Part shown: positions 62,465-63,750 of the stretch, one piece after another
Layout: each line of letters begins with the position of its first letter
Numbering within the stretch: the first letter of the stretch is position 1
Source of the DNA: Octopus vulgaris
Taxonomy: Eukaryota
DNA length: 64,000 bases
Assembly (NCBI GenBank): GCA_951406725.2
Contig: OX597828.1
Coordinates: forward strand, 67,766,001 to 67,830,000
Direction of reading: 5' to 3'
The notes under the pieces: generated by a model
The model's input: the letters and a program-made list of their open reading frames with translations, nothing else
Told to the model about the DNA's origin: nothing
Databases searched by the model: none
Position numbers and translations under genes: made by a program

Positions 62465-63742
62465 GTTTATATATCTGTTGTGCAAGATTTTTTATGTGAA
62501 GTCGTGTGTTGAAACAGATATTGTTATATTTCGGAATGGTCATTTTGCCAGTTTAACCAATAAAAACACACGCACTATATATTTGGTGTTACATTGCTTC
62601 AGTGTTATTTATTTTTTACATTAATCTTAATCTTATTTCGGCCAACTCTTGGTATGATAGCTATAAATACCAGAGTGTCATGTTCGTTGACACCATCCCT
62701 GGAGGTGAACTGGCGTACCGCTTTAGAAGGACCCCAGACAAACTTAAGCTAAGGATTAAGGTTGTTGAAAAGCCAGGCAACCCTATCAAATCTATAATTG
62801 GTAGAACCTATCCTTTTAGTAGAACCCCCTGTACTGATAAGTACTGTACTGTATGTAGATTTAGCCCACAAACAAACTGTAAAGCCAGAAATGTAGTCTA
62901 TAGTATAAGATGTATAGAGTAACAAGACAACGACATACGTTAGGGAAACGGCAAGAAGCATAGGAGAGCGGGTAAATGAACATTGGAGACAACTTAAGGA
63001 AGGTAAAAGCTCATCGATTCTGTACCAACACGCCGAACAGGAACACGGGGGATTAATCAACAACATAGAAATTAAAATATTGTCTACACATAGAACAGAT
63101 GCAACAATCAGACAAATTACAGAAGCTACACACATAATAGAAAATAAACCTAGCCTGAATAGAAAACTAGAATGGAACAATAGCACACACCACAACATAT
63201 GACGGTAGAGGATCCCGAAAACATAATAAATACACAGATAAATAAACAAATAGAAATAAATAACTATATATATATATTATTTTTTTTATTATTACTAGTA
63301 TTGTTGTTATACAAACATACATACAAGCATATGTAATGATAATAATAAAGGGATGTAAACACATGAACAAAATAAGAATAAACAAAAACAACAACAAAAA
63401 CAAATTACATGAACGTATATAAACAGAAGATACAAATATTACAGGCATCCCCCCCACACACACACTAAATAAACATAGACGCACATAGAGATATAAGCAT
63501 GCGCAAATGAAGACATACAATAGAAATACAAAATGGCTGACGGTTAGTAAGGAGAGACACAAATAAGAAAGAAGAAAACAAAGGACCACTGATGCGGTCA
63601 CAGGAGTGTGACGAAAGAACTCTGGCCGAAATAAGATTAAGATTAATGTAAAAAATAAATAACACTGAAGCAAAGTAACACCAAATATATAGTGCGTGTG
63701 TTTTGTATTGGCTAAACTGGCAAAATGACCATTCCGAAATAT

Positions 63743-63750
<8 letters not shown>
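62465..63750 (+). mobile_element. 5'-truncated Penelope-like element (GIY-YIG region) with 3' pLTR and inverted 5' pLTR copy
   Basis: CTDKYCTVC...NCKARNVVYSIRC, then frameshifted YVRETARSIGERVNEH...RQITEATHI..NKPSLN. 62518-62644 is the reverse complement of 63623-63750. (TA)n on both sides. Confidence 0.88.
63584..63627 (+). ncRNA. Minimal type I hammerhead variant in the 3' pLTR
   Basis: GACCA-CTGATGC-G-GTCACA-GGAG-TGTGAC-GAA-AG-AA-CT-C-TGGCC. A9 changed to C; perfect 6-bp stem II; predicted cut after C63622. Confidence 0.65.

What the first reader, a model, noticed from the sequence alone, without database searches (positions are those of the whole stretch)
62518..63750. Inverted pLTR copy ends exactly at the predicted hammerhead cleavage site
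Seen: the 3' pLTR reads GAAAGAACTC^TGGCCGAAATAAG (cut predicted after C63622). The inverted copy at the element's 5' end (62518-62644) matches from TGGCC onward and stops at ...TTCGGCCA|actctt, with no match to the bases before the cut. Inference: the inverted copy was templated by an RNA whose 5' end was made by ribozyme cleavage, a genomic footprint of in vivo activity for a variant core (CUGAUGC-G). This is a single junction; other fold-backs in the window break elsewhere.
Basis: partly seen in the sequence, partly recalled or inferred. Interest (0 to 1): 0.72.

Follow-up and report, generated by a model that had tools for sequence, protein, structure and literature searches.

The report
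Penelope arms mark two RNA ends
This is a back-to-back double insertion of a common Penelope-type jumping gene whose short arm stops at the predicted cut of the element's self-cutting RNA, but five shared bases blur that stop; across the genome only a small surplus of arms ends there, likely recording occasional cutting, while far more end 84 bases downstream at a likely transcription start.

Summary
In detail: 62518-62644 is the reverse complement of 63623-63750 and stops at the predicted hammerhead cut. Two things were missed. The arm also carries the family's ~53-nt tail (62466-62517). The last five bases, GGCCA (62640-62644), are shared with the ORF arm, so the true end lies anywhere from 0 to +5: this junction alone shows nothing. 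The family is a Neptune-type Penelope element with over 7,000 arm ends, inserted as head-to-head pairs joined by microhomology. Genome-wide, 38 arms end at the cut: 5-6 times a microhomology-aware expectation, 2.2 times a same-ending control, but by hand correction only about 1.5-2 times the busiest positions inside stem II, and flanking positions are raised too. A far larger pile-up (741 hits; 16 of 111 sampled arms against 1 at the cut) lies at about 63701-63709, 18 nt before the ORF start: likely the transcription start. The expanded subfamilies carry C at core position 9, older copies the canonical A; arms ending at the cut are not enriched for the older type. Occasional in vivo cleavage is plausible, about even odds, not shown. 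The scan noted both kinds of arm end before in other genomes.

The parts
62419..62465 (.). (TA)n target run, left flank
62466..62517 (-). Tail of the short arm: the ORF codons that follow the pLTR end in a full-length tandem copy; present on exactly one arm in 31 of 31 two-armed loci
62518..62644 (-). Inverted short arm, reverse complement of 63623-63750
62640..62644 (.). 5-nt microhomology GGCCA shared by the short arm and the ORF arm
62640..63750 (+). Long arm: 5'-truncated copy of the element (end of RT region, Cys linker, GIY-YIG endonuclease, 3' UTR, pLTR)
62647..63200 (+). ORF remnant, linker and GIY-YIG domain, frameshifted near 62920
   Evidence: translation; full-length relative L099 has RVT_1 (E 0.0014) and GIY-YIG (E 0.00035) matches below Pfam cut-offs
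63583..63627 (+). Minimal type I hammerhead motif: stem I 63583-63588 with 63623-63627, core 63589-63596 with C at position 9 (63595), stem II 63597-63602 with 63607-63612, GAAA 63613-63616, 2-bp stem III, predicted cut after 63622
   Evidence: activity untested
63686..63692 (+). TATA-like word, starting 21 nt before 63707 (closer than a textbook TATA box, recalled)
   Evidence: function inferred
63701..63709 (+). Main pile-up of arm 5' ends in the family; likely transcription start
63725..63750 (+). First codons of the 1309-aa ORF inside the pLTR; the tailless arm ends here
63747..63797 (.). (TA)n target run, right flank

Best explanation
This is a head-to-head, two-armed insertion of a Neptune-type Penelope element in a TA run, joined at a five-base microhomology, and the family's arms likely end where the copying enzyme ran off the front of its RNA: mostly at a likely transcription start 84 bases downstream of the ribozyme and, for a small minority, at the predicted ribozyme cut. 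Shown: two arms, one with and one without the tail, microhomology joints, a large pile-up at about 63701-63709 and a small surplus at the cut. Inferred: each broken target end primes its own cDNA at one of two internal start sites in the first ORF codons (pLTR end and tail end); each cDNA stops at the RNA's 5' end or earlier; the two 3' ends anneal through 2-5 shared bases. RNAs begun at the promoter give arms of about 45 or 100 nt, read-through RNAs cut by the ribozyme give arms of about 127 or 180 nt, uncut read-through RNAs give long arms such as the window's forward arm. The window's short arm fits the cut class but cannot be assigned to it: I put the chance that this very junction came from a cut RNA at about one in three.
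For: Two-arm geometry and tail on one arm in 31 of 31 two-armed loci, as described for PLEs (PMC8557442 passages, PMC3846280 passages) and matching two internal RT start sites shown in vitro (PMC11167929 main text). Microhomology mode 3 nt. Ends at the cut: 38 of 39 hits real against about 10 per position at -3..-9 (67 of 81 kept); ratio 5.0-6.4 to the null, the highest of the 11 classes modelled; 38 against 19 at a same-ending control where 0.9:1 was expected. No pile-up at the 3' foot of stem II (1 and 2 of the first 100 listed). Main pile-up: 741 hits with a sharp 3' edge, only 11 of the first 100 listed end 3' of 63707 (by eye); 16 of 111 sampled arms; it lies 18 nt before the ATG; Penelope promoters lie in the pLTR (PMC2377424 passages) and a TATA plus Inr-like pair is noted in a rotifer pLTR (PMC3846280 passages).
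Against: The window's junction is ambiguous over 5 nt. Classes +2, +1 and -1/-2 are also raised 2.1-3.4 times, and about 32 arms continue two bases past the cut with the C-type GA (by eye), which run-off from a cut RNA does not explain. Positions -16 and -17 inside stem II hold 16 and 14 of the first 100 listed; after a hand correction for detection they reach about 60-65% of the cut class, and counts per position scatter from 0 to 16, far more than Poisson. Core position 9 is C in 124 of 144 arms, stem III is not palindromic, and arms ending at the cut are not enriched for the older type linked to canonical A9 (11 of 26 against 22 of 63, P 0.63). In the anole element the ribozyme was not needed for insertion in vitro and no reads began or ended at its site (PMC11167929). 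The transcription-start reading has no RNA evidence here, and the pile-up sits at an A-run that favours chance matches.
Confidence: 0.55

Rival explanations
1. No cleavage record: cDNAs stop at random and junctions gather wherever 2-5 shared bases allow annealing; GGCC is a GC-rich palindrome with many partners in the element, so the match to the cut is a coincidence.
For: 5-nt microhomology at the window junction; 14 of 22 arms of class +1 sit in 8 perfect GGCC-centred palindromes; 22 of about 33 class +2 arms join two GGC partners; 7 cut-class arms join the same CCA partner; -16/-17 are nearly as busy; no enrichment of the canonical-core type.
Against: The microhomology-aware null leaves the cut class 5-6 times too high; a control with the same GCCA ending is 2.2 times lower; about 9 of 38 cut-class arms run into TA-like sequence (6 of 30 fetched have no partner arm nearby) against 1-2 in all of -3..-9 (by eye).
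Confidence: 0.33
2. The enzyme stalls at the 3' edge of the folded or protein-bound but uncut ribozyme, giving a broad surplus from -2 to +8.
For: Raised counts on both sides of the cut; the variant core may be inactive.
Against: The stablest helix, stem II, shows no pile-up at its 3' foot; the maximum is at 0, not at +5 where stem I ends; the motif folds no better than shuffles (z -0.9).
Confidence: 0.1
3. The arms arise by self-priming fold-back on an antisense template, as proposed for rotifer PLEs, so arm ends reflect palindromes rather than RNA ends.
For: Palindromic joints occur; hypothesis in PMC3846280 (passages).
Against: Most pairs have arms of unequal length joined at unrelated positions, including the window; exactly one tail per pair.
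Confidence: 0.05

Closest known systems
Neptune/Nematis-type endonuclease-positive Penelope-like elements (PMC8557442, passages)
   Same: Single ORF with RT, Cys linker and C-terminal GIY-YIG; pLTR with hammerhead; adjacent inverted 5'-truncated copy; tail on one end; microsatellite targets.
   Different: Tail about 53 nt rather than 30-40; clade not placed on a tree here; the passages read do not map arm ends to RNA ends.
PAc, Poseidon of Anolis carolinensis (PMC11167929, parts 1-2 of 4 read: main text)
   Same: Two genomic 3' ends inside the first ORF codons, both target strands extended, AT-rich targets.
   Different: There the cut lies 26 nt after the start codon and no RNA ends were found at it; here it lies about 101 nt before the ATG and a small genomic surplus of arm ends falls on it.
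Minimal hammerheads of metazoan PLEs (PMC4209133, parts 1-2 of 4 read)
   Same: Type I, short stem I, 6-bp stem II, extra base before stem II, G10.1-C11.1, rudimentary stem III.
   Different: C at position 9 in the expanded subfamilies; stem III loop not palindromic; activity untested.
Adineta vaga Pen2a and N-rich Penelopes (PMC3846280, passages)
   Same: pLTR includes the first codons, tail extends them, inverted pLTR shorter than the full one, TATA plus Inr-like words in the pLTR, asparagine-rich insert in the ORF.
   Different: Thousands of copies here; the N-rich stretch lies before the RT.

Membership tests
EN+ Penelope-like element | Single ORF with RT followed by GIY-YIG endonuclease | tested here: met
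   1309-aa ORF in L099; RVT_1 E 0.0014 and GIY-YIG E 0.00035, both under Pfam's cut-offs; Atlas hits at 0.96-0.97 with HTH_animal, GIY-YIG, RVT_1. The whole protein gave no Pfam hit at 0.01.
EN+ Penelope-like element | Pseudo-LTR from partial tandem, with hammerhead motif | tested here: met
   L099 holds two direct pLTRs 4598 nt apart; motif.
EN+ Penelope-like element | Inverted 5'-truncated partner and tail at one end | tested here: met
   (31 of 31 two-armed loci)
Neptune clade | Cys-rich Zn-finger-like linker between RT and EN | tested here: met
   CxxxxCxxC before the GIY-YIG motif, read directly; also shared with Nematis (PMC8557442)
Neptune clade | Placement in the RT tree | not tested
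   No tree built; the name rests on the linker and the (TA)n targets.
Minimal type I hammerhead ribozyme | Core C3 U4 G5 A6 N7 G8 A9 | tested here: not met
   Position 9 is C in the window and in 124 of 144 arms, A in 13; three older copies have A.
Minimal type I hammerhead ribozyme | G12 A13 A14 A15.1, U16.1 and a UH cut site; stems I and II | tested here: met
   no compensatory changes seen, the family is too young to show them
Minimal type I hammerhead ribozyme | Palindromic stem III and loop for dimer formation | tested here: not met
   63617-63620 reads GAAC, not self-complementary; a dimer helix would carry mismatches.
Minimal type I hammerhead ribozyme | Self-cleavage at the UH site | not testable with these tools
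   Needs an assay or raw RNA reads.

The most novel reading that the evidence does not exclude
The genome is a fossil 5'-RACE of this element: its thousands of arms map the transcription start and the ribozyme cut, showing that a hammerhead with C at core position 9 and no palindromic stem III still cuts in the germ line, while most copying uses RNA that starts downstream of the ribozyme or is uncut.
Probability: 0.4. Interest if true: 0.65.

Novelty: new member of a known kind. Interest (0 to 1): 0.4.

Why it matters
Whether Penelope hammerheads cut in living cells, and how the inverted arms form, are open questions (PMC4209133, PMC11167929, PMC8557442). Arm-end maps give exact coordinates to test: a likely capped start at about 63701-63709 and a likely 5'-OH end at 63623. 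In this family the cut accounts for at most a small share of arms, and the young subfamilies spread after losing the canonical A9, which suggests that cutting is dispensable for spread.

Tried and rejected
RNA ends: no RNA holder listed on record; four runs guessed to be RNA exist as contigs only and cannot show starts or ends; no conclusion drawn. Rfam: no hammerhead among the 150 of 198 matches listed. Stall at stem II: not seen. Enrichment of the canonical-core type at the cut: not seen. Cap-templated extra G at the main pile-up: 3 of 16 sampled arms have a G there, two of them explained by the partner, and none of the first 100 listed shows it, though that pattern filters some out: inconclusive. 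First reading that six loci with the same -98/+78 joint were copies of one master: left open, since the joint has a 9-nt microhomology and may recur. The microhomology-aware null covers +2 to -9 and the -89 control only; for -10 to -23 there is only a hand correction. The first DNA search overstated the cut class because it scores only the best candidates. The Lunse et al. dimer paper was not held, so whether a C9 core was tested there is open; no A9 variant was found by term search in PMC3088659.

Full report
Coordinates: 0 is T63623, the first base after the predicted cut. Positions beyond +80 differ by one between the window and most copies.

Observation. 62518-62644 aligns to the reverse complement of 63623-63750 (128 columns, 97.7%) and stops at 0. 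The motif at 63583-63627 has the layout of a minimal type I hammerhead. The short arm continues through a tail to about 62466, and (TA)n runs flank the insertion. In the family's ORF the five bases before 62645 are GGCCA, identical to the last five bases of the inverted arm. The junction is therefore a 5-nt microhomology and the arm's true end lies between 0 and +5.

The element. A 21-nt pLTR-end motif has 7,392 matches in the 2.8-Gb genome, control 0; older copies with two differences are not counted. Locus L099 holds a full unit of 4,598 nt with a 1309-aa ORF that starts at the position of 63725, inside the pLTR. RT and GIY-YIG matches are weak in Pfam (none for the whole protein) and clear in the Atlas. 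A Cys linker precedes the endonuclease, as in Neptune and Nematis elements (PMC8557442, passages); no tree was built. Insertions are mostly head-to-head pairs of 5'-truncated arms; 31 of 31 two-armed loci carry the tail on exactly one arm. This geometry is known (PMC8557442 and PMC3846280, passages), and the two 3' ends match the two internal RT starts shown for the anole element (PMC11167929, main text).

Where arms end, sample. I fetched the first 100 listed motif matches (all on contig 1, all without mismatch, so nearly all of the young type: 112 of 114 arms). Of 111 arms, 36 run beyond -330, 16 end at +78..+86 and 1 ends at 0.

Where arms end, genome-wide near the cut. A pattern that needs the arm downstream and non-family bases upstream found 554 matches, control 10. 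Class patterns gave: 0 followed by a pyrimidine 39, 38 kept; +1 22 arms, 14 of them in 8 GGCC-centred palindromes; +2 46, about 33 kept; -1/-2 102, about 75 kept, and the window's junction falls here; -3..-9 81, 67 kept. Dropped rows were intact arms with small indels or internal deletions, judged by eye. Microhomology has a mode of 3 nt among the 71 junction arms of the first 100 (21 loci and 2 arms left out as intact, duplicate, complex or false). A null with flat hazard, the observed microhomology preference and observed partner positions, scaled on -3..-9, gave observed/expected 5.0-6.4 for class 0, 2.4-3.0 for +1, 2.9-3.4 for +2 and 2.1-2.5 for -1/-2; it has no term for joints to the target. 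A control position with the same GCCA ending (-89) gave 20, 19 kept, where 0.9:1 was expected: 2.2-fold, P 0.003.

Results against. Positions -9..-23 gave 156 matches. Among the first 100 listed (95 classed by eye) -16 and -17 hold 16 and 14, while -10 and -11, the 3' foot of stem II, hold 1 and 2. With assumed pass rates (0.82 for a non-G or non-C place, 0.65 for non-A or non-T, 0.5 for the pyrimidine), class 0 is about three times the mean of -3..-23 but only 1.5-2 times -16, -17, -1/-2 and +2; this is hand arithmetic, not a model. About 32 arms go two bases past the cut with matching GA, so the surplus is not confined to run-off. Position 9 of the core is C in 124 of 144 arms and A in 13; three older copies have the canonical core. 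Arms ending at 0 are of the older type in 11 of 26 cases, other classes in 22 of 63 (P 0.63); that type carries A9 in only 11 of 24 typed arms, so the test is weak. That a change at A9 slows hammerheads is recalled, not from a call.

The main pile-up. A pattern for ends at about +77..+86 gave 741 matches, control 0, with four filter places that pass roughly 45%. By eye 11 of the first 100 listed end 3' of 63707 and about 79 end at 63707 or within the next five bases, an A-run on the copied strand where chance matches extend the apparent end. The site lies 18 nt before the ATG and 21 nt after the start of a TATA-like word. Penelope promoters lie in the pLTR (PMC2377424, passages; PMC6765202, passages). 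I infer a transcription start; no RNA data could test it. No genome-wide control of equal design was run for this site; in the sample it holds 16 arms in 9 nt against 6 in +53..+73.

Mechanism. Shown: geometry, tail rule, microhomology, the two concentrations of arm ends. Inferred: both target ends prime a cDNA at internal sites in the first codons; each cDNA stops at its RNA's 5' end or earlier; the cDNA 3' ends anneal. RNA begun at the promoter lacks the upstream ribozyme and yields very short arms; read-through RNA that the ribozyme has cut yields arms ending at 0; uncut RNA yields long arms. I give about even odds that the surplus at 0 is due to cleavage and about one in three that the window's junction is such an event. 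Rivals are microhomology alone, stalling at the folded motif, and antisense self-priming.

Novelty. The element is a new member of a known kind. Paper searches turned up no map of Penelope arm ends against the ribozyme cut; PMC11167929 reports no RNA ends at its site and PMC4209133 low activity in vitro and no in vivo evidence. The bioRxiv retrozyme preprint (passages) does not address it. Earlier notes of this scan report both arm ends at the cut and arm ends at a likely start in other genomes; these are unchecked and were read after my counts and my start-site reading (note). What is particular here is that the main end lies downstream of the ribozyme and that the spreading subfamilies carry a variant core. 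Interest 0.4.

Noticed in passing
window 61638-61953: A near-perfect fold-back of about 315 nt between TA runs (arms 94 nt at 98% and 53 nt at 96%); unrelated to this family by the window BLAST, which did not cover it as query.
   Followed up: no
window 62170-62387: Inverted arms of 83 nt, 93% complementary, 52 nt apart, ending at a TA run.
   Followed up: no
window 61352-61399 and 63800-63847: A 48-nt direct repeat at 98%: the piece right of the Penelope insertion repeats part of a LINE-like stretch at 61000-61530 (likeness to LINEs recalled, not tested), so the two fold-backs and the Penelope pair may lie inside or beside a rearranged older element.
   Followed up: no
window 2171-2667: Inverted arms of 209 nt, 97% complementary, 79 nt apart.
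   Followed up: no
L011-L016: Six loci on different contigs share the same -98/+78 joint through a 9-nt microhomology: recurrent joining or a spreading mini-element.
   Followed up: partly
L099 minus strand, ORF 4939-1013: Uninterrupted 1309-aa ORF with a long asparagine- and serine-rich stretch before the RT, like the N-rich inserts of rotifer Penelopes.
   Followed up: partly
L017, L026, L027 against window 63595: Older copies have the canonical A9 core; the abundant young subfamilies have C, and the youngest also changes the base before the cut from C to T.
   Followed up: partly
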